From Candidatus Methanofastidiosum methylothiophilum (lineage in GTDB: Archaea; Methanobacteriota_B; Thermococci; Methanofastidiosales; Methanofastidiosaceae): a DNA stretch of 64,000 bases. Shown one piece after another: positions 5,066 through 12,335 of this stretch. Where the stretch lies: the NCBI GenBank assembly GCA_001587575.1, contig LNJC01000001.1, positions 47,864 through 111,863 of the forward strand. The letters are read 5' to 3'. The notes under the pieces were generated by a model. That model made no database searches. It was not told the origin of the DNA and saw nothing but the letters and a program-made list of their open reading frames with translations. The position numbers were made by a program, and so were the translations under genes. The first letter of the stretch is position 1. The number at the start of each line of letters is the position of its first letter.

Positions 5066-5887
5066 ATGATTGAAGCTACTTTTTATTTGGAATCACAGAG
5101 CAACTCTAAAGAGGCTCTTGAGCTCTCTGTTAGGAAACTGTTAGAGGAGGTCAAGGGCTTAAACAATGTAAAGATATCTAGGGAGTTGTTCCATGAGATA
5201 TTGGAAGACGAGGATGAGATGGGGAGGATATTCTATTCCTCTGTCCTTGAAGTTGACATAAAGACTGAGTTTAGAGAGTACATCACGCTTTGCATGAGGC
5301 TTGTGCCATCGACAATTGAGATAATAAAGGGGGATGTAAAGATCAAAGGTAAAGAACTTCTCGAAGTATTTGGTGACGTTTCTTCAACAGTGAATAAGCT
5401 ATGCAAAAAATACAATCTGACCCTTTATAGGGTAGGCGAGGGAGAAGGATTGAAGCAGAGTAAGATTGGTTTGGAAGAGGAAGAGATTGAAGAAGCAGTT
5501 GAGCAAGGTGGGGCTCTATTCAAGTTTGTCGTTGAAGCAAGGGCAAAGAATGAGAAGTTTGCCATGGAGAAGACAAAGGAGCTTGTAAATGATACAGGCG
5601 GAATGATACACAAGATGCTTGCAAAAAAGGTCGGCGAAGGAGAAGCTTGGGAAGGTGTAGTTGGCATGGAAGTGCTATTCTTTGATATTGAGACCTTGTT
5701 TGATGCAGTGATCAAATTTTCTCCTGTTGCAATGAGCTTCATAGAGCCAGAGGTTGTACATTTGAACATGGCAGAGCTCCAGAATATTGGAATTGACATA
5801 GCAGGGATTATACAGCAGCTTACATTTGATGTTATTACAAGAGGCATGAGAGGTGGCCAAGGAAGCTTTAGGGCGACTCAAGCCTAA
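5066..5887 (+). CDS. Hypothetical acidic cytoplasmic protein of 273 aa
   Basis: The ORF is clean with consistent codon usage and has no recognisable motif. It lies directly upstream of the S-layer gene pair. Confidence 0.45.
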   Translation: MIEATFYLESQSNSKEALELSVRKLLEEVKGLNNVKISRELFHEILEDEDEMGRIFYSSVLEVDIKTEFREYITLCMRLVPSTIEIIKGDVKIKGKELLEVFGDVSSTVNKLCKKYNLTLYRVGEGEGLKQSKIGLEEEEIEEAVEQGGALFKFVVEARAKNEKFAMEKTKELVNDTGGMIHKMLAKKVGEGEAWEGVVGMEVLFFDIETLFDAVIKFSPVAMSFIEPEVVHLNMAELQNIGIDIAGIIQQLTFDVITRGMRGGQGSFRATQA

Positions 5888-5908: not shown

Positions 5909-5925
5909 ACAAAAGATTTATAAAC
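5909..5925 (+). promoter_or_regulatory. Putative BRE/TATA promoter of S-layer gene A (AAAAGATTTATAAAC)
   Basis: It is an A-rich BRE-like element plus TTTATAAA located about 70 nt upstream of the ATG at 5995. The same CAAAAGATTTATA(A/T)AC element recurs upstream of the second S-layer gene. Confidence 0.5.
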
Positions 5926-5994
5926 AACCCAATTCAATAGATTATTGTACCCTTCTAGAGAAATTAAAATAAAACCTATTAAAGGTGAAAATAT

Positions 5995-8373
5995 ATGAAA
6001 TTAAGAACAATTGGAGCAGTCCTCGCAGGGGCTGCAATGATTGGAGCTACTGTAGCAGGCGCTGCCGCTGCAGCAACAGTTCCAGGAAAAGCTTGGTTTA
6101 TTGACCCAGCAACGGGCACACCAAACGTAACAATAGTCGTTGGAGCACAAGCCAACGCATCCGATGTAGTTTCTGCATCTTTGATTGCAGCAGCAGTCGG
6201 TAACATGGCAACTGTCGAGCAGACAGCATCCGTACCAACAACTGCTTCAGCAACATGGGATAAGATTGGAGACTACAATTACACATATGTTCCAACTACA
6301 ACGACATACAATGCTACATGTGCAGACAGACCTGCTACATGGTACACAGACTATGGTCTACTATCTACTAGATACTGGGAAACATCTGAAGATGACTACC
6401 CCTCAGAGAATGCAGCAGCAGGCGGATACAGGACATACGTCCAGATTGCAACACCCTCAGAAATAAGGCATGGAACAGGCGGAGCCCAAGTCACAAAGGG
6501 ACTTAGCACCCTATGGTTCTCAAACTCAGCAAAAGACTGGGATGCAAATGACAGGATATACAAGCTTGCACCACAATCTGGAGCAGGCACAGGCTCATAC
6601 TGGCTTGTGAACAATGCAGTAACAGGATCACCAACTGCACTTATAACCAGAACTTTACCAAACTACGCTGGAGGAAGCTATGACGATGGAGACGGCCAGT
6701 GGGACCTTGACTACGCATTCTACACAACATTGGCATGGGTAAATGTAACTGACCCAGCCCCAAGACCTGCAGCACCAACAGTAGGCCAATACAGCAAAAC
6801 AGTCGACTGTGACTACGATTTCGGTGGAACAGGTACCGGAATGGAAGCACACGAAGAAATTCAGTTCATATTAACAAGCGATGACTGTGCAGGATGCGCA
6901 GCCACCGGATTACCCTTATTCAAGGGAGACAAGGGCGTCGTATCAGGTATAGTATACAGAACAACTGAAATCAGATACCCATTGTTAGAAAACGGCCAGA
7001 ACATCTGTGGAATCCAGAAGTGCTGGGGTATGGTTGACTTTGAAACTGCAAGAACAGGCAGATTCACACCAATCAAATTCCTCGGTAAGATGTACCAGCC
7101 AATGTTTGCAGGTGCAACATGGTATGAGACACCTGGATACCTTGGTGCATACTTCATGTACGGTAAGCCATACGCAGAGAAAGAAAAGATCATGAAGGTA
7201 GGGGACGTCTACAACTACCACGGATGGACTGTTACATTAAACGATGTAAACATATACGAAAACAAGGCATACATAACAGTTGCCGGTCCAACATTAACTG
7301 CACCATTTAACTTCATAATGGTCATGGACTCACTAGGCGACTGTGGACCATGCTGTCCAGACTGTGCAATATACGGTGGAAAGGGAGCTTTCACATCCAA
7401 CCCAACAAGAAGAAACGAATACGACCCATACGTTAACTACACAACTGTAACAAAGACAAAGGACGACTACGCATACAACTTCTTCAGATATGTAAACTTC
7501 ATGCTCGACGGTATCAAGACATTCGTCGGCGCAGACGGTACATACCTTGCAGAATTCAACTTGTACGCAATCGAAGACTTCGGATACTTAGAAGACAAGG
7601 GATGCTGTGACCCATTCGTCACAACACCAAACGACTACGGTCTTGCAATAACTGGTGGATGGAGAAAAGTTACAACAGTAATGGAAGAAACCACACCTCT
7701 TAAGAAAGCAGCAACTGTTGTTGGCCCATGGGAACTTAACGGTACAAGCGCTACTGATCCATTCGAGTACATCCAGTGGATGCCAGCCCCAGTATGCAAC
7801 GCATACTGCCCAGATGCAAACTTCGACACACTTGAATTAAGACTTTGCGACACAATAAAGGTACCAGACTGTGAAACATCATACACAGTCAACGGTCCAG
7901 AAAACTACTTCAAGATAGAATTACTTGACGTAGACTTTGGAACATACAACACCGACTTAACTATGTTCGATGAATACCTTACAAGAGAAGTATACGTAGG
8001 CAAATACACAAAGGCAGCACCAAATGACAAAGACGGTCTAAGAGCAAGACTCTCAATGACCACAGCAGGCCAGACAATAAAATACACAGCAAACGTCAAG
8101 ATCGACCCAGTTGAGCTCATAAAGCTTGACATAGAAGTCAACACTGCCACAAACAAGAAGAACTTAGTTCTTGTCGGCGGTCCAGTATACAACAGCATCG
8201 TAAAGGACTTAGTTGACATGGGAGCATCCACTGTCGACTGGGCAACATCCAGGGGAGAATGGGAATGGATAGCAGACCCAATGGCCAAAGGATACGATGT
8301 CTTAATAGTAGCTGGTGCCAACAGAGAAGAAACAAGAATGGCAGCAGAAGACTTAGTCAGAATGTTGAACTAA
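5995..8373 (+). CDS. S-layer (surface layer) protein, paralog A; secreted and cysteine-rich
   Basis: It has an N-terminal signal peptide (MKLRTIGAVLAGAAMIGATVAGAAAAA). This is followed by the motif VVGAQANASDVVSASLIAAAVGNMA, which resembles the Methanococcales S_layer_N domain. The C-terminus (NLVLVGGPVYNSIVKDLVDMGA...VLIVAGANREETRMAAEDLV) resembles S_layer_C. A strong RBS (AGGTGAAAA) precedes the start. Confidence 0.7.
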   Translation: MKLRTIGAVLAGAAMIGATVAGAAAAATVPGKAWFIDPATGTPNVTIVVGAQANASDVVSASLIAAAVGNMATVEQTASVPTTASATWDKIGDYNYTYVPTTTTYNATCADRPATWYTDYGLLSTRYWETSEDDYPSENAAAGGYRTYVQIATPSEIRHGTGGAQVTKGLSTLWFSNSAKDWDANDRIYKLAPQSGAGTGSYWLVNNAVTGSPTALITRTLPNYAGGSYDDGDGQWDLDYAFYTTLAWVNVTDPAPRPAAPTVGQYSKTVDCDYDFGGTGTGMEAHEEIQFILTSDDCAGCAATGLPLFKGDKGVVSGIVYRTTEIRYPLLENGQNICGIQKCWGMVDFETARTGRFTPIKFLGKMYQPMFAGATWYETPGYLGAYFMYGKPYAEKEKIMKVGDVYNYHGWTVTLNDVNIYENKAYITVAGPTLTAPFNFIMVMDSLGDCGPCCPDCAIYGGKGAFTSNPTRRNEYDPYVNYTTVTKTKDDYAYNFFRYVNFMLDGIKTFVGADGTYLAEFNLYAIEDFGYLEDKGCCDPFVTTPNDYGLAITGGWRKVTTVMEETTPLKKAATVVGPWELNGTSATDPFEYIQWMPAPVCNAYCPDANFDTLELRLCDTIKVPDCETSYTVNGPENYFKIELLDVDFGTYNTDLTMFDEYLTREVYVGKYTKAAPNDKDGLRARLSMTTAGQTIKYTANVKIDPVELIKLDIEVNTATNKKNLVLVGGPVYNSIVKDLVDMGASTVDWATSRGEWEWIADPMAKGYDVLIVAGANREETRMAAEDLVRMLN

Positions 8374-8607
8374 ATTAAAATAAATATATTTTATTTTTTT
8401 CTTTTATTTAAAATTTAAATTAAACTCATCTCTTCTTAGAATAGTTCTTATGCTAAAAGAATTCTTAGTGCAACTATTCATATAAATCTTTTAGATTCGC
8501 TATTATTTGAAGCTAGATTACTACACTTTTGTTATAGCTAATAGATTAGGCGATTATTGAACATAATATATAATATCAATACATATTATTTTCTCTATTA
8601 TTGCAAC

Positions 8608-8623
8608 CAAAAGATTTATATAC
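8608..8623 (+). promoter_or_regulatory. Putative BRE/TATA promoter of S-layer gene B (CAAAAGATTTATATAC)
   Basis: It is near-identical to the element upstream of gene A and lies about 60-75 nt upstream of the ATG at 8685. Confidence 0.5.
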
Positions 8624-8643
8624 TATTAAAAAAAATAGTATAT
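8618..8643 (+). promoter_or_regulatory. Perfect 10-bp-arm palindrome ATATACTATT-AAAAAA-AATAGTATAT overlapping the TATA box
   Basis: The inverted repeat was read directly from the sequence. Its position over the TATA box suggests a transcription-factor operator. Confidence 0.45.
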
Positions 8644-8647
8644 TGTA

Positions 8648-8667
8648 GCTAAACGTTATTGTTTAGC
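8648..8667 (+). promoter_or_regulatory. Inverted repeat GCTAAAC-N6-GTTTAGC in the 5' leader of S-layer gene B, just upstream of the RBS
   Basis: It forms a 7-bp perfect stem that ends 4 nt before the RBS AGAGGTGAAA. This could act as a leader hairpin or a second operator. Confidence 0.4.
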
Positions 8668-8684
8668 AATAGAGGTGAAATGAT

Positions 8685-11147
8685 ATGAGAATAAAAATGT
8701 TAGGGGCTGCTTTAACGGGAGCCCTAATGTTAGGAGCAACATTAGCAGGAGCAGCATCAGCCGCAACAGTTCCGCCAAAAAGCTTTTTCATCGATCCACT
8801 TACAGGAGCACCTGATGTCGTCATTGCCGTTGGCGCAACAGCAAATGCATCAGACGTAGTCTCCGCATCACTTATTGCAGCAGCAGTAGGCAACATGGCA
8901 ACCGTAGAAGAAACAAGGACTGTTACAAGAACAGCAAGTGCCACTTTTGACTATATGATGGACTACAACTATACATACGACAGGTCTAGTAAGAATATAG
9001 AATACTACAATTCAACCTGTACTGATACAGCAGCATGGGCAAAGTGGTACACAGACTATGAACTGTTTTCCACACAGTTCTGGGAAACTGCATCAGGCGA
9101 CGGAATTAAAGGAGATAAAGATGTTAAAGACTATGATATTTCAGTTGCAATAGCAATGCCAAAGGAAATAAGAAATCCAGATGGATATGTAGTTGCAAGA
9201 GAATTGAACACACTATGGTTTTCAAACTCTCCAAAAGATTGGGATTCAAACAACAGAATCTACTACCTTAAACCACAATCTGGAGCAGGTACAGGATTAT
9301 ACTATCTTGTAAATACAAAGGTAACAGCAGCTGAAGTAGGAGCAGTATCTCCAACAGCAAACATAGTCAAAACTTTACCTGCATACGCAGGCGGAAGCTA
9401 TGACAATGGAAATGGATCATGGGATTTTAATTACGTTACAGGAGAGTATGCTTTCTTTTCAACAAAAGCTTGGGTAAATGTAACTGATCAAACAACAACC
9501 GCTACCTACGCACCAAAAGCTGACTGTGACTATGTCTTCGGTGGAACAGGTACAGAAATGGAGCCTCATGAGGAAATCCAGATCATTCTCGCAGACATCG
9601 AAACAACACCAGACGGTTTGGTAGATATGAGAGGAGACAGAGGTTCTGCATCTGGTATAATATACAGAACAGCAGAAATCAGATACCCCTTGTTAGAAAA
9701 CGGCCAGAACATCTGTGGAATAAGTAACTGCGACGGTATGGTAGACTTTGAAACTGCAAGAACAGGCAGATTCACACCAATCAAATTCCTCGGTAAGATG
9801 TACCAGCCAATGTTTGCAGGTGCAACATACAACTCTGAAGGGGGATACCTTGGTGCATACTTCACATACGGTAAGCCATACGCTGAGAAAGAAAAAATCA
9901 TGAAGGTAGGAGACTCTTATAACTTCCACGGATGGACTATAAATCTATCCGACGTAAACATCTATGAAAACAAAGCTTTCATAACAGTTTCTGGACCAGA
10001 TCTAGCTTCTCCATTTAGCTTCATAATGGTCATGGACTCTCTTGGCGACTGTGGCCCATGCTGTCCAGACTGTGCAATATACGGTGGGGGAGGAGCATTT
10101 ACATCCAACCCAACAAGAAGAAACGAATACGACCCATACAGAGTCAAAATAACAAAGACAAAGGAAGTAGATGGCAGAACATATAATCTATTTAACTATG
10201 TACCTTTCATGCTCGATGGTATAAAGACATTCGTCGGTGCAGACGGTACATACCTTGCAGAATTCAACATCTACGCAGTTGAAGATTTCGGATGGTTTGA
10301 AGACAAGGGATGCTGTGACCCATTCGTCACAACGCCAAATGACTACGGTCTAGCAATAACTGGCGGATGGAGAAAAGTTGCATACAACGCAACTACACAA
10401 GACGTATCAGGATGGTTCTCTTGGGAAGATGGCATTGCAGCGGGAGACAGAAATGTATCTCAAGCATACATCCTATGGCAACCAGCACCAAGATGCAACA
10501 CACCATGTCCAGATGCAAACTTTGATACATTGGAACTCCAGCTTTGTGATAACATTGACATACCTGATTGTGAAACTGCATTTACCGTCAACGGTCCAGA
10601 GAACTACTTCTCTGTAGTAATACAGGATGTAGACTTTGGAAAGAAAAACAAAACATTGAATTTCGATACAATTGACCTATTGAATGCTCAAACTCCATAT
10701 GATCAACTACTTGGATACTATGAGACTACACCAATAACTCCAGAAACAATATTATTAGGAGTCTATGCAGGCAGAGCAAACAGCGACTCAGCAGACGTAG
10801 ATGGTGCAAAGATAATGATATCTCAGACAACAGTTGACACAGCTCAGTCGATCACTTACACAAAGAGTGTAAACATTGACCCAATTGAGCTAATAAAGCT
10901 TGATATCGAAATCAACACTGCATCACTTCAAAAGAACTTAGTTCTTGTCGGTGGACCAGTATACAACAGCATTGTTAGAGACCTTGGAAATATGGGTGCA
11001 TCAACAGTTAATTGGGCCGCATCACCTGGTGAGTGGGAATGGATAGCAGACCCATTCGGCAGAGGATATGATGTCCTTATAGTAGCCGGTGCCAACAGAG
11101 AAGAAACAAGGCTCGCTGCTCAGCAGTTAGTATCTCAATTGAGATAA
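8685..11147 (+). CDS. S-layer protein, paralog B
   Basis: It has the same architecture as paralog A: a signal peptide (MRIKMLGAALTGALMLGATLAGAASAA) and conserved N- and C-terminal S-layer domains. Internal blocks (for example 9661-9900 and 10011-10330) are nearly nucleotide-identical to gene A. Confidence 0.7.
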   Translation: MRIKMLGAALTGALMLGATLAGAASAATVPPKSFFIDPLTGAPDVVIAVGATANASDVVSASLIAAAVGNMATVEETRTVTRTASATFDYMMDYNYTYDRSSKNIEYYNSTCTDTAAWAKWYTDYELFSTQFWETASGDGIKGDKDVKDYDISVAIAMPKEIRNPDGYVVARELNTLWFSNSPKDWDSNNRIYYLKPQSGAGTGLYYLVNTKVTAAEVGAVSPTANIVKTLPAYAGGSYDNGNGSWDFNYVTGEYAFFSTKAWVNVTDQTTTATYAPKADCDYVFGGTGTEMEPHEEIQIILADIETTPDGLVDMRGDRGSASGIIYRTAEIRYPLLENGQNICGISNCDGMVDFETARTGRFTPIKFLGKMYQPMFAGATYNSEGGYLGAYFTYGKPYAEKEKIMKVGDSYNFHGWTINLSDVNIYENKAFITVSGPDLASPFSFIMVMDSLGDCGPCCPDCAIYGGGGAFTSNPTRRNEYDPYRVKITKTKEVDGRTYNLFNYVPFMLDGIKTFVGADGTYLAEFNIYAVEDFGWFEDKGCCDPFVTTPNDYGLAITGGWRKVAYNATTQDVSGWFSWEDGIAAGDRNVSQAYILWQPAPRCNTPCPDANFDTLELQLCDNIDIPDCETAFTVNGPENYFSVVIQDVDFGKKNKTLNFDTIDLLNAQTPYDQLLGYYETTPITPETILLGVYAGRANSDSADVDGAKIMISQTTVDTAQSITYTKSVNIDPIELIKLDIEINTASLQKNLVLVGGPVYNSIVRDLGNMGASTVNWAASPGEWEWIADPFGRGYDVLIVAGANREETRLAAQQLVSQLR

Positions 11148-11190
11148 ATAAATTAAAAATTTAATTTTTTTATTTATTTTTAAAAAAAAT
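11148..11190. terminator. AT-rich palindromic, T-tract region between convergent genes (S-layer B and eIF5A)
   Basis: The segment ATAAATTAAAAATTTAATTTTTTTATTTATTTTT lies between two convergent stop codons. Confidence 0.35.
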
Positions 11191-11696: not shown

Positions 11697-12335
11697 GTGA
11701 TAGGCATGAAGAAACAGTTTTTGGCAATTGGAACATTGTTTTTAGTATGCACTATGGCAATGTGTATTAATCAGGCCCAGATACCTGATAAGTTCAAAGA
11801 GGCATACACAAAAATAGAAACGACTCAAAAAGAGATAGAAACTATATATTTAGCATATGAAGAACAGGTCGATAAGCGAGTCGAATATGTTGAAAAACAA
11901 AAAATCAGTGCCAATGTGGATAACAAGTATCTTTTATCGCTTCTAGAATCTGAATCTCTATTAATTGAAGAACTAGCTCAAAAAAGTGCAACATACTCTA
12001 GTCAAATAAATGATCTATTTAACGAATCAAAAGAAATAAAAAATGCCGATGTTAAATCTAAGGCTACCGAATTAATTATCACTCTTAGAAACTCTCAACA
12101 GAATCTTAGTAATGGCGCTTTGAGTCTTAAAGAGGCAACTCAATCAGCAGGCGGAGCAATCTATTACTACGCAACAGGTGCGGACCTAAATGACCCATTA
12201 ATAAAACAAGATATCCAGGCTTTAAATCTAAACTCCAAAACACAATTTGACACTGCAGTAGTGCAACTGAACGCGTATTACAATGGCAAACTAGAAGCAA
12301 GAGCTTTGTACGATGAATTAATTAAAATGAAATAA
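11697..12335 (+). CDS. Secreted or lipoprotein-like coiled-coil hypothetical protein
   Basis: It has an N-terminal signal peptide with Cys residues (FLVCTMAMC), and the remainder is predicted helical. Confidence 0.45.
   Translation: MIGMKKQFLAIGTLFLVCTMAMCINQAQIPDKFKEAYTKIETTQKEIETIYLAYEEQVDKRVEYVEKQKISANVDNKYLLSLLESESLLIEELAQKSATYSSQINDLFNESKEIKNADVKSKATELIITLRNSQQNLSNGALSLKEATQSAGGAIYYYATGADLNDPLIKQDIQALNLNSKTQFDTAVVQLNAYYNGKLEARALYDELIKMK

What the first reader, a model, noticed from the sequence alone, without database searches (positions are those of the whole stretch)
5995..11147. Tandem S-layer paralogs with a mosaic of near-identical and highly diverged segments, the signature of gene conversion or a phase-variable surface
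The two genes encode 792 and 820 aa. They share nucleotide stretches that are nearly identical, for example 6958-7200 versus 9661-9900, 7300-7440 versus 10010-10140, 7500-7640 versus 10200-10340, and the last ~250 nt of each gene. The N-terminal third after the signal peptide and a ~500-nt segment before the C-terminal domain are strongly diverged, and gene B carries insertions. Blocks that are nearly identical at synonymous sites, sitting beside diverged blocks, indicate ongoing gene conversion rather than a simple old duplication. The diverged segments would be the surface-exposed, variable parts. The shared blocks also generate mirrored antisense ORFs (6861-7193 and 9566-9901) that are artefacts.
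Basis: seen in the sequence. Interest (0 to 1): 0.6.

Follow-up and report, generated by a model that had tools for sequence, protein, structure and literature searches.

The report
Tandem S-layer genes, one conversion patch
Two neighbouring cell-surface (S-layer) protein genes of the uncultured methanogen Candidatus Methanofastidiosum are an ancient duplicate pair that both look active, and one short stretch of the first gene was copied into the second; this is ordinary gene-family evolution, not a surface-switching device.

Summary
Gene A (5995-8373) and gene B (8685-11147) encode Methanococcales-type S-layer proteins. They are 67% identical as protein, and nucleotide identity runs from about 50% to 91% along the genes.

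Comparison with 51 related loci splits this mosaic into three causes:
- **Ancient duplication.** The tandem A-B pair is conserved across Methanofastidiosum lineages whose housekeeping genes are saturated at synonymous sites. The N- and C-terminal parts, which together form the anchor domain matching PDB 9FSA, are strictly paralog-specific. The "last ~250 nt" are only 75% identical and were not converted.
- **Family-wide conservation.** Most of the "near-identical" blocks are conserved core sequence in every homolog.
- **One supported A-to-B conversion tract.** The core is A 7027-7123 to B 9735-9831; low divergence extends over 6955-7207. It contains an 85-nt exact match. Synonymous difference (pS) is 0.20, against 0.51-0.91 for cross-genome A-B pairs. 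W_B nests beside W_A inside the A clade (bootstrap 0.87-0.89). An independent, cleaner conversion hit the same spot in another lineage.

The tract has since diverged by about 4%, so conversion is episodic rather than "ongoing". Phase variation is not supported: each gene has its own conserved promoter, 5' UTR and terminator, both show strong codon bias, and there is no conserved invertible element.

The parts
5910..5925 (+). Promoter of gene A: archaeal BRE/TATA motif CAAAAGATTTATAAAC
   Evidence: The sequence was read. It is conserved in 9 A-upstream regions from other genomes, and the repeat finder pairs it with the B promoter (D10). Promoter function is inferred from the motif and its conservation; it was not tested.
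5926..5994 (+). A-specific conserved 5' UTR, with ribosome-binding site GGTGA at 5984-5988
   Evidence: One search shows near-invariant sequence across species whose flanking genes are saturated at synonymous sites.
5995..8373 (+). Gene A, an S-layer protein of 792 aa with a signal peptide
   Evidence: Supported (P0001 is 100% identical and is named S-layer protein precursor of Ca. Methanofastidiosum methylothiophilum). Effective codon number Nc is 37.2 and GC3 is 0.42.
6112..6219 (+). Gene A, N-terminal half of the split anchor/dimerisation domain (aa 40-75)
   Evidence: phmmer match to PDB 9FSA residues 16-51. The paper describing 9FSA defines the construct as aa 24-75 plus 484-576 of the M. 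voltae S-layer protein. The A and B clades are each monophyletic in 100% of bootstraps for 5995-6504.
6265..6460 (+). Gene A, hypervariable segment 1
   Evidence: A-B nucleotide identity is 42-67%. The distance to the nearest ortholog is 0.23-0.31. A broader stretch containing it (about aa 97-297) is only 77-89% identical between strains L016 and L018, whose flanks are 98-99% identical.
6955..7207 (+). Donor side of the region of low A-B divergence. The firmly supported conversion core is 7027-7123. Two short patches (7015-7026 and 7124-7141) stay diverged.
   Evidence: Core: 4/97 mismatches, against at least 14/97 to any A ortholog and at least 20/97 to any B ortholog. There is an 85-nt exact run at 7036.
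7285..7641 (+). Family-wide conserved core blocks (7285-7374 and 7495-7641), separated by a more variable stretch
   Evidence: Cross-genome A-B distances equal the within-genome distance. W's pS is 0.33 and 0.27, at the 7th and 2nd percentile of cross-genome pairs. Most diagnostic sites stay paralog-specific, with one isolated A-like site at 7492. An older or partial conversion cannot be excluded.
7642..8050 (+). Gene A, hypervariable pre-C-terminal region (mainly 7642-7780 and 7900-8050)
   Evidence: 59% identity with 114 gap columns. pN is 0.43-0.47. pN/pS is about 0.5-1 between close orthologs, against about 0.03-0.3 in the core.
8116..8367 (+). Gene A, C-terminal half of the anchor domain (aa 708-791)
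   Evidence: Matches 9FSA residues 68-149. Foldseek aligns the model to 9FSA at rmsd 1.4 A and 41% identity. Not converted: A monophyly 1.0, B monophyly 0.99, pS 0.61.
8374..8420 (+). T-rich terminator region after gene A
   Evidence: Sequence read. Its first ~23 nt are identical, and the T-rich stretch that follows is nearly so, in all 12 aligned intergenic regions. Terminator function is inferred.
8607..8622 (+). Promoter of gene B: BRE/TATA motif CCAAAAGATTTATATA
   Evidence: The motif is invariant in all 12 aligned intergenic regions.
8623..8684 (+). B-specific conserved 5' UTR, with hairpin GCTAAAC/GTTTAGC (8648-8667) and ribosome-binding site GGTGA (8674-8678)
   Evidence: Conservation shown. 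The fold has -9.5 kcal/mol and z=-1.9.
8685..11147 (+). Gene B, the paralogous S-layer protein of 820 aa
   Evidence: Supported (P0025). Nc is 39.4. The exact protein is encoded on 3 assembled contigs, including GCA_001587695.1.
9663..9915 (+). Recipient side of the conversion. The A-type core lies at 9735-9831.
   Evidence: W_B sits inside the A clade as sister to W_A, with bootstrap 0.87-0.89. It is A-like at diagnostic sites 9759, 9760, 9863 and 9864. W_B is closer to other genomes' A genes (11/97) than to any B gene (20/97).
10815..11138 (+). Gene B, C-terminal half of the anchor domain
   Evidence: TIGR01564 match at aa 711-818. The segment is B-clade specific.
11148..11190 (+). T-rich terminator region after gene B
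   Evidence: Sequence read. Function is inferred.
6861..7193 (-). Antisense ORF inside gene A (artefact)
   Evidence: The frame is interrupted by stops in nearly all homologs.
9566..9901 (-). Antisense ORF inside gene B (artefact)

Best explanation
Genes A and B are an ancient tandem duplicate pair of Methanococcales-type S-layer protein genes in Candidatus Methanofastidiosum methylothiophilum.

- **Expression (inferred).** Each gene is an independent transcription unit. Both are probably highly expressed.
- **Three sources of the mosaic.**
  1. The N- and C-terminal pieces fold together into the membrane-proximal anchor/dimerisation domain. They are conserved within each paralog class but have been diverged between classes since the duplication.
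  2. The beta-rich core is under strong purifying selection in the whole family, which by itself produces 85-91% nucleotide identity.
  3. Hypervariable segments turn over quickly, largely by recombination between strains.
- **The conversion (shown).** On top of this, one short non-reciprocal transfer copied roughly 100-250 bp of A's core into B, using the flanking conserved blocks as homology. It happened after this lineage split from all sampled relatives and has since diverged by about 4%.
- **Recurrence (shown).** Similar conversions recur sporadically in other lineages. They are always inside the central 6505-7641 region and never in the termini.
- **Not tested.** Expression of both genes, and how the two proteins share the lattice.
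For: **Family and fold**
- HMM hits above the curated cutoffs.
- Sequence and fold match to the M. voltae anchor domain 9FSA, and a DUF1608-like core matching 3U2G.

**Ancient, conserved pair**
- The A-B tandem with a ~310-nt spacer occurs in at least 11 other loci.
- The gene order proC - up273 - A - B - aIF5A - orf212 - H+-PPase is conserved, while flanking-gene pS is 0.39-0.74.
- A and B are each monophyletic in 99-100% of bootstraps at both gene ends.

**Conversion in the window**
- Tract pS is 0.20. Seven of the eight other genomes' pairs show 0.56-0.82 (the eighth, L012, shows 0.09), and 161 cross-genome pairs show 0.51-0.91. The W pair ranks below all 215 cross-genome pairs.
- In a local-score test, W scores 55.6 (permutation p<=0.0005). 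W and L012 are the top 2 of 192 A-B pairs; the best cross-genome pair scores 44.2.
- In the tract tree W_B is sister to W_A inside the A clade (bootstrap 0.87-0.89).
- The tract contains an 85-nt exact run.

**Independent case at the same place**
- L012_B differs from the otherwise near-identical allele L029_B at 64 sites. Of these, 61 lie within A coordinates 7035-7191, and at 57 of the 64 L012_B carries the base of its neighbour L012_A.

**Both genes maintained**
- Each has a conserved promoter, UTR and terminator.
- Nc is 37.2 and 39.4, against 41-54 for nearly all other long genes in the window.

**Not an assembly error**
- The tract copies are not identical to each other.
- The exact W_B protein is encoded on 3 assembled contigs.
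Against: - No close relative of this genome was found, so there is no "before" allele for the window's own tract, and its age is only bracketed.
- The tract is interrupted by two diverged patches (7015-7026 and 7124-7141). These could mean two events, patchy mismatch repair, or later divergence.
- Blocks 7495-7641 and 7285-7374 have somewhat low pS (2nd and 7th percentile). More conversion than I credit may therefore have occurred.
- The permutation test assumes exchangeable polymorphic sites. I controlled for this only empirically, using cross-genome pairs.
- Expression of both genes is inferred from sequence signals and codon bias only.
- All data come from metagenome assemblies.
Confidence: 0.8

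Rival explanations
1. There was no gene conversion. The mosaic simply reflects uneven purifying selection, plus codon bias lowering synonymous change in the most constrained parts of a highly expressed gene.
For: Most of the high-identity blocks (7285-7374 and 7495-7641) are equally conserved between A and B of different genomes. Both genes have strong codon bias. Cross-genome A-B pS is lower in the core blocks (0.50-0.52) than elsewhere (0.6-0.7).
Against: In the tract 6985-7203, seven other genomes' pairs have pS 0.56-0.82 and cross-genome pairs never fall below 0.51, whereas W has 0.20. W_B nests inside the A clade only in this tract. The L012/L029 comparison shows a conversion directly.
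Confidence: 0.06
2. Conversion is pervasive and ongoing across all conserved blocks, including the 3' end. This is the first reader's stronger version: A and B are being continually homogenised except where diversifying selection resists it.
For: A and B monophyly collapses throughout 6505-7641. Several genomes (L012, L022, L013, L002) have their own low-pS blocks there. In the core blocks, A-B pS equals A-A and B-B pS.
Against: The 3' 318 nt and the 5' 510 nt show 99-100% paralog-specific clades and saturated pS. Genomes L001, L014, L016 and L032 show little or no within-genome signal. W_B keeps B-diagnostic bases at nearly all sites outside the tract. The W tract has already re-diverged by about 4%.
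Confidence: 0.15
3. The locus is a phase-variation or antigenic-variation device. One copy is expressed at a time, with switching by promoter inversion, cassette recombination or slipped-strand mispairing.
For: The genes are tandem surface-protein paralogs with shared blocks. In the window there is an inverted copy of the B promoter motif at 8480-8505 / 8596-8621 (I3), and an A8 run lies between the B TATA box and the likely transcription start.
Against: Both genes carry their own promoter, UTR and ribosome-binding site, all conserved across species. The inverted motif is not conserved in 11 other intergenic regions. Tandem-repeat search finds no simple-sequence repeats of note. None of the five flanking genes examined is a recombinase. 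Both genes have high-expression codon bias. The pair has been stably kept in the same order across species.
Confidence: 0.03
4. The shared tract is an assembly artefact. A de Bruijn graph assembler may have threaded the A path through the B gene at shared k-mers.
For: The sequence is a metagenome-assembled genome. The tract is flanked by exact repeats of 20-39 nt shared by A and B, which is the situation in which assemblers can cross over.
Against: The two copies differ at 4/97 sites in the core and by two diverged patches, so B's tract is not a copy of the assembled A. The exact W_B protein is encoded on 3 contigs of different lengths, one of them in a named NCBI assembly. The same phenomenon appears in an unrelated assembly, again with non-identical copies.
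Confidence: 0.03

Closest known systems
Methanococcales/Thermococcales-type archaeal S-layer proteins (TIGR01564 S_layer_MJ; Pfam PF05124), e.g. the Methanococcus voltae S-layer protein whose anchor domain is PDB 9FSA
   Same: The HMM matches are above cutoff. The split N- plus C-terminal anchor/dimerisation domain is shared (41% identity, rmsd 1.4 A to 9FSA). The core is beta-rich and resembles the Methanosarcina DUF1608 domain (3U2G). There is a signal peptide and no C-terminal transmembrane helix.
   Different: The proteins here are about 220-250 aa longer than the M. voltae protein (576 aa), with large family-specific insertions and hypervariable segments. They occur as a conserved tandem pair of diverged paralogs rather than as a single described lattice protein.
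Concerted evolution of duplicated genes by short-tract gene conversion (from my own knowledge: bacterial tufA/tufB and many tandem paralog families)
   Same: The transfer is non-reciprocal and runs between paralogs in one genome. It is bounded by conserved sequence and is detected as a local collapse of synonymous divergence and as phylogenetic incongruence.
   Different: Here conversion is rare, short (about 0.1-0.25 kb) and confined to the central core. The gene ends have kept paralog identity since before the sampled species split, so the pair is not being homogenised.
Campylobacter fetus sap locus (S-layer antigenic variation; PMC4943207 describes multiple sapA/sapB copies and sapAB recombinants)
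   Same: There are several S-layer gene homologs at one locus that share conserved blocks, recombine with one another, and carry variable regions thought to be under diversifying selection.
   Different: From my own knowledge, sap uses a single promoter that is moved by inversion between promoterless cassettes sharing a conserved 5' end. Here there are only two copies, each with its own conserved promoter, no inversion elements, and paralog-specific 5' and 3' ends.
Strain-level mosaic surface-protein loci maintained by homologous recombination in natural archaeal and bacterial populations (general phenomenon, from my own knowledge)
   Same: Related strains with 98-100% identical flanks carry A or B alleles that differ by 11-45% in particular segments. 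Different A and B alleles are found in different combinations.
   Different: This was seen in related loci, not in the window's own population, for which no close strain was retrieved. The selective agent (viruses, grazers, syntrophic partners) is unknown.

Membership tests
Methanococcales-type S-layer protein family (TIGR01564 / PF05124) | Profile HMM match above the curated cutoff | tested here: met
   PF05124 scores 121.9 and 106.1 bits against a cutoff of 23.9. TIGR01564 scores 103.8 and 80.9 bits against a cutoff of 25.
Methanococcales-type S-layer protein family (TIGR01564 / PF05124) | Split anchor/dimerisation domain built from N- and C-terminal segments | tested here: met
   phmmer aligns aa 40-75 and aa 708-791 to the 9FSA construct. 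Foldseek gives rmsd 1.4 A and probability 1.00. The construct is defined in PMC11410804.
Methanococcales-type S-layer protein family (TIGR01564 / PF05124) | N-terminal secretion signal | tested here: met
   The sequence shows a charged N-terminus followed by a hydrophobic stretch: MKLRTIGAVLAGAAMIGATVAGAAAA in A and MRIKMLGAALTGALMLGATLAGAASA in B. This is conserved in all homologs. It was judged by eye, not by a predictor.
Methanococcales-type S-layer protein family (TIGR01564 / PF05124) | Forms the 2-D crystalline cell-surface lattice | not testable with these tools
   This needs microscopy or multimer modelling.
Inter-paralog gene conversion | Within-genome paralogs are closer to each other than to their orthologs in a bounded tract, and not in the flanks | tested here: met
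   At 7027-7123 there are 4/97 A-B mismatches, against at least 14/97 to A orthologs and at least 20/97 to B orthologs. The flanks 7208-7284 have 19/77.
Inter-paralog gene conversion | Synonymous divergence collapses in the tract relative to a control that shares the same constraints | tested here: met
   pS is 0.20, against a cross-genome A-B median of 0.71-0.73 and minimum of 0.51. The W pair ranks below all 215 cross-genome pairs.
Inter-paralog gene conversion | Phylogenetic incongruence between the tract and the rest of the gene | tested here: met
   In the tract, W_A and W_B are sisters inside the A clade in 87-89% of bootstraps. At the gene ends, A and B are each monophyletic in 99-100%.
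Inter-paralog gene conversion | Statistically significant shared fragment (GENECONV-type test) | tested here: met
   My own local-score and permutation implementation gives p<=0.0005. The W and L012 pairs rank as the top 2 of 192 pairs. GENECONV and RDP themselves were not run.
Inter-paralog gene conversion | An unconverted allele is available for direct before/after comparison | tested here: inconclusive
   This is met for the L012 lineage using L029_B. No such allele was found for the window's own lineage.
Phase-variable or antigenic-variation S-layer system (sap-type or invertible-promoter type) | A single promoter serves alternative promoterless cassettes | tested here: not met
   Both genes have their own BRE/TATA, UTR and ribosome-binding site, conserved across species.
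Phase-variable or antigenic-variation S-layer system (sap-type or invertible-promoter type) | Conserved inverted repeats flank an invertible segment, with an associated recombinase | tested here: not met
   The only candidate inverted repeat (8480-8505 / 8596-8621, 77% complementary) is not conserved in other genomes. The five flanking genes examined are proC, an MJ0538-family gene, aIF5A, a lipoprotein-like ORF and H+-PPase, none of them a recombinase.
Phase-variable or antigenic-variation S-layer system (sap-type or invertible-promoter type) | Slippage-prone simple repeats in the promoter or 5' coding region | tested here: not met
   Tandem Repeats Finder reports only three weak two-copy arrays. 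The A8 run upstream of B varies between species as ordinary sequence.

The most novel reading that the evidence does not exclude
The two paralogs may be obligate partners in a two-component S-layer. Their anchor domains have been kept distinct since before the sampled species diverged. They could pair as an A-B heterodimer at the position where the M. voltae protein forms a homodimeric two-fold axis.

Under this reading, the repeatedly converted core segment (aa ~345-400, hit independently in two lineages) would be a lattice contact that must stay matched between the partners. The hypervariable cassettes, exchanged between strains through ultra-conserved gene ends, would diversify the exposed face, for example against viruses.
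Probability: 0.2. Interest if true: 0.6.

Novelty: new member of a known kind. Interest (0 to 1): 0.33.

Why it matters
- **Annotation.** It fixes the annotation and evolutionary history of the main cell-envelope genes of an uncultured methyl-reducing methanogen class. The envelope is encoded by two long-maintained S-layer paralogs that both look expressed, not by one gene plus a spare copy.
- **A documented archaeal example.** It gives a clean case of short-tract gene conversion between archaeal paralogs, including a before/after allele pair in a sister lineage. It also shows that conversion is tolerated only in the conserved core.
- **Practical use.** The paralog-specific anchor segments and the hypervariable cassettes are useful for strain typing. 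They also guide the design of multimer models or proteomic assays.
- **Limits.** It does not reveal a new mechanism.

Tried and rejected
- **Codon bias or purifying selection as the sole cause of low pS.** Rejected for the tract using other genomes' A-B pairs as a control.
- **Conversion of the C-terminal 250 nt.** Rejected (75% identity, pS 0.61, clade support 99-100%).
- **Conversion of 7495-7641 and 7285-7374.** Not established. pS is low (2nd and 7th percentile), but most diagnostic sites remain paralog-specific and cross-genome pairs are equally close.
- **Weak mutual-nearest signal at 6508-6598 / 9210-9300**. The tree gives only 8% support for W_A and W_B as sisters, and pS is at the 4th percentile. 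I treat it as unresolved.
- **Invertible promoter** (I3). Rejected because it is not conserved.
- **Antisense ORFs as genes.** Rejected.
- **Rfam scan of the window.** It found only two tRNAs and nothing in this locus.
- **Literature searches** for Methanofastidiosum S-layer biology or archaeal S-layer gene conversion. They found nothing specific.
- **Search for a close relative of this genome to serve as an unconverted reference.** None was found. The genome and metagenome scans returned only lineages with saturated synonymous divergence.
Full report
**1. What is at the coordinates**

Two same-strand ORFs occupy the region: A at 5995-8373 (792 aa) and B at 8685-11147 (820 aa). Both match the S-layer models PF05124 and TIGR01564 well above their curated cutoffs. 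A and B are identical to proteins that NCBI names "S-layer protein precursor" of Candidatus Methanofastidiosum methylothiophilum (P0001 and P0025).

The Pfam match spans almost the whole protein because the domain is split between the two ends. Residues 40-75 and 708-791 of A align to PDB 9FSA. 9FSA is an engineered fusion of aa 24-75 and 484-576 of the Methanococcus voltae S-layer protein. Its authors describe it as the domain responsible for dimerisation of the anchor, lying on a two-fold axis of the lattice (PMC11410804).

An AlphaFold model of A has mean pLDDT 70 and pTM 0.68. Its best PDB matches are the DUF1608 S-layer domain of Methanosarcina acetivorans (3U2G, E=8e-8) and 9FSA (rmsd 1.4 A, 41% identity). 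The architecture is therefore a signal peptide, half an anchor domain, a large beta-rich body with insertions, and the other half of the anchor domain.

**2. Checking the observation**

A and B are 67% identical as proteins and 70% as aligned DNA. Whole-gene Nei-Gojobori proportions are pS 0.56 (synonymous) and pN 0.22 (non-synonymous). The profile is clearly uneven. In 30-codon windows, nucleotide identity ranges from 0.42 to 0.91 and pS from 0.09 to above 0.9.

| Block in A vs block in B | Identity |
|---|---|
| 6958-7200 vs 9666-9908 | 88.5% |
| 7300-7440 vs 10008-10148 | 86.5% |
| 7500-7640 vs 10208-10348 | 90.8% |
| Last 250 nt of each gene | 75.2% |

- The longest exact match is 85 nt (7036/9744). 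All other exact matches are 39 nt or shorter.
- The heterogeneity is real. "Nearly identical" is too strong, and the 3' end does not belong in the list.
- The antisense ORFs exist but carry 1-8 stops in the same frame in nearly all homologs.

**3. Bringing in relatives**

One genome scan and one metagenome scan returned 51 loci.

- **Conserved pair.** The A-then-B tandem, with a spacer of about 310 nt, is present in at least 11 other loci. It sits in the conserved gene order proC - MJ0538-family gene - A - B - aIF5A (opposite strand) - small lipoprotein-like ORF - H+-pyrophosphatase.
- **Old divergence.** Between the window and every one of these relatives, the flanking housekeeping genes have pS of 0.39-0.74. 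That is at or near saturation. The pair therefore predates the divergence of all sampled lineages, and no close relative of this genome is available.
- **A third type.** A third homolog type ("C") lies in a different genomic context. I used it as the outgroup.

**4. Separating conservation from conversion**

I built a 35-gene codon alignment and used A-B pairs from different genomes as the control. Such pairs share the same selective constraints but cannot have exchanged sequence within a genome.

*Gene ends*
- For 5995-6504 and 8050-8367, W's pS (0.61-0.83) equals the cross-genome values.
- A and B each form a clade in 99-100% of bootstraps. There is no conversion at the ends.

*The block 6985-7203*
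- W's pS is 0.20 (8.6 synonymous differences over 43.8 sites).
- Seven of the eight other genomes' pairs show 0.56-0.82; the eighth, L012, shows 0.09. Across 161 cross-genome pairs the range is 0.51-0.91. The W pair ranks below all 215 cross-genome pairs.

*GENECONV-like test*
- I scored local runs of agreement at the 1295 polymorphic ungapped sites and assessed them with 2000 permutations.
- W's best fragment lies at A 7038-7200 / B 9746-9908, with score 55.6 and p<=0.0005.
- Among all 192 A-B pairs, the two best are the within-genome pairs of L012 (92.8) and W. The best cross-genome pair scores 44.2.

*Tree of the tract*
- A neighbour-joining tree of the tract places W_B as sister to W_A inside the A clade (bootstrap 0.87-0.89).
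- L012_B is sister to L012_A (bootstrap 1.0). All other B genes form the B clade.
- The direction is therefore A to B, and the two events are independent.

*Fine structure*
- The firm core is 7027-7123: 4/97 mismatches between W_A and W_B. The nearest A ortholog differs from W_A at 14/97. The nearest B ortholog differs from W_B at 20/97.
- W_B is closer to another genome's A gene (11/97) than to any B gene.
- Low divergence extends over about 6955-7207.
- Two short patches remain diverged: 7015-7026 (QKCW vs SNCD) and 7124-7141 (WYETP vs YNSEG). These lie in loops that vary across the whole family.
- After about 7207, W_B returns to B-type diagnostic residues (INLSD, KAF).

- At 7285-7374 and 7495-7641, cross-genome A-B distances equal the within-genome distance.
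- W_B keeps B-type bases at most diagnostic sites in this stretch, including 7496, 7570, 7586 and 7587; a single isolated site at 7492 is A-like.
- W's pS (0.33 and 0.27) is at the 7th and 2nd percentile.
- I treat these blocks as family-wide conservation, with an older or partial conversion not excluded.

**5. A direct demonstration in a sister lineage**

L012_B and the separately assembled allele L029_B differ at 64 of 2388 aligned sites.
- 61 of the 64 lie within 157 nt, at A coordinates 7035-7191.
- At 57 of the 64 sites L012_B carries the base of its tandem neighbour L012_A.
- Only 3 differences lie elsewhere.

This is a before/after pair for an A-to-B conversion at the same position as the window's tract. 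Other genomes have their own low-pS blocks (L022, L013, L002), always between 6505 and 7641. L001, L014, L016 and L032 show little or none. Conversion in this family is therefore episodic, short, confined to the conserved core, and absent from the anchor-domain ends.

**6. Are both genes live, and is there a switch?**

*Signs that both genes are maintained*
- Each gene is preceded by a near-identical archaeal BRE/TATA motif (CAAAAGATTTATA) at 5910-5925 and 8607-8622.
- Each has a paralog-specific 5' UTR and a GGTGA ribosome-binding site, and is followed by a T-rich stretch.
- These elements are almost invariant across species whose coding synonymous sites are saturated. The middle ~170 nt of the spacer is not conserved.
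- A and B have the strongest codon bias among the long genes of the 64-kb window: Nc 37.2 and 39.4, against 41-54 for nearly all others.

I infer two independently transcribed, highly expressed genes. This was not tested.

*Signs that there is no switch*
- The one inverted repeat that includes the B promoter motif (8480-8505 / 8596-8621) is not conserved elsewhere.
- There are no slippage-prone repeats.
- None of the five flanking genes examined is a recombinase.

The phase-variation reading is not supported.

**7. The variable parts**

*Rates of change*
- Segments 6265-6460, 7642-7780 and 7900-8050 are the most diverged between A and B (pN 0.35-0.47). They are also the most diverged among orthologs.
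- Between close orthologs, pN/pS there is about 0.5-1. In the core it is about 0.03-0.3 (median about 0.13), and in the anchor it is at most about 0.2 (mostly below 0.05).
- pN and pS jump together. That points to allele replacement rather than to point mutation in place.

*Strain comparisons*
- L010 and L014 are 100% identical through gene A and the spacer, then only 55-72% identical inside B.
- L011 and L012 are 92-100% identical through the flanks and A, but 75-88% in B.
- L018 and L016 have 98-99% identical flanks and a 100% identical B. Their A genes fall to 72-89% identity over about aa 97-297 and 563-753.

The locus is thus also a site of recombination between strains that reshuffles the variable segments. 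It could not be examined for the window's own population.

**8. Assembly artefact?**

The two tract copies are not identical to each other. The exact W_B protein is encoded on three assembled contigs of different lengths, including one in GCA_001587695.1. The L012 case comes from an unrelated assembly and also has non-identical copies. A chimera is unlikely, but only read mapping would exclude it.

**9. Comparison with known systems**

- **Family.** By every sequence and fold test I could run, these are members of the Methanococcales-type S-layer family.
- **Process.** This is ordinary short-tract gene conversion between tandem paralogs.
- **C. fetus sap locus.** It resembles that locus in having several S-layer homologs that recombine (PMC4943207). 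It lacks sap's defining single movable promoter and promoterless cassettes; those features of sap are from my own knowledge.
- **Prior literature.** I found no paper on Methanofastidiosum S-layer genes or on gene conversion in archaeal S-layer paralogs.

**10. Verdict**

- The finding is a well-behaved example of known processes in a known protein family: ancient duplication, domain-specific constraint, one short conversion, and strain-level recombination.
- The points worth a specialist's attention are these:
  - the strict preservation of paralog-specific anchor domains;
  - the repeated use of the same ~160-nt conversion site in two lineages;
  - the unusually low synonymous divergence of the A gene ends among species.
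- Together these leave room for a two-component-lattice hypothesis that I could not test.

Noticed in passing
L012:6982-9376 vs L029:23-2423 (homologous to window 7035-7191): L012_B and L029_B are near-identical except for 61 differences packed into 157 nt. At nearly all of these sites L012_B matches its neighbour L012_A. This is a textbook conversion tract with its unconverted allele.
   Followed up: yes
L010 vs L014; L011 vs L012; L018 vs L016 (whole loci): Strains with 98-100% identical flanks, and one identical S-layer gene, carry a strongly different allele of the other gene (55-89% identity in parts). This indicates recombination between strains and reassortment of A and B alleles.
   Followed up: partly
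window 5995-6114 and 8050-8367 (also 5910-5994 and 8374-8420): Among A orthologs, the gene ends have median pS of 0.13 and 0.28. That is far below the gene's own core (0.42-0.63) and below the flanking housekeeping genes (0.39-0.74). The promoter, 5' UTR and terminator are also almost invariant. The cause could be RNA-level selection or homogenisation between lineages; it is not resolved.
   Followed up: partly
window 8648-8667: A conserved hairpin (GCTAAAC-N6-GTTTAGC) lies in the B 5' UTR just upstream of the ribosome-binding site. Its stem is invariant in 12 genomes. The fold has -9.5 kcal/mol and z=-1.9. It may be an mRNA-stability or translation element.
   Followed up: partly
window 8480-8505 / 8596-8621: An inverted, 77% complementary copy of the B promoter motif lies 90 nt upstream of the real one. 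It is not conserved in other genomes.
   Followed up: yes
L002:6001-8361: In one MAG contig, an A-type S-layer gene sits downstream of the H+-pyrophosphatase gene (order B - aIF5A - orf212 - HPPase - A). This is either a relocated or an extra A copy.
   Followed up: no
L023, L024, L028, L030, L036, L038, L040: A third homolog type is equidistant from A and B (53-61% identity). It lies in a different genomic context. In L030 there is no second copy within 5.6 kb upstream or 3.3 kb downstream.
   Followed up: partly
window 5066-5887: The conserved upstream neighbour is a 273-aa acidic protein. It had no hit in the Pfam or NCBIfam copies I searched, but is labelled PF27325 (MJ0538 family) in precomputed annotations. 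It is always adjacent to gene A in the related loci whose upstream flank was available.
   Followed up: no
window 11697-12335: The small ORF downstream of aIF5A has a lipoprotein-like signal (MKKQFLAIGTLFLVCTMAMC). It evolves fast (46-71% aa identity, pN about 0.3) while its neighbours are 92-98% identical.
   Followed up: no
window 6001-8000 vs 8001-10000: Gene A is more GC-rich than B (window GC 0.46 vs 0.39; GC3 0.42 vs 0.34), and A orthologs show lower pS than B orthologs at the gene ends. This could mean stronger translational selection on A, which would then be the major subunit.
   Followed up: partly
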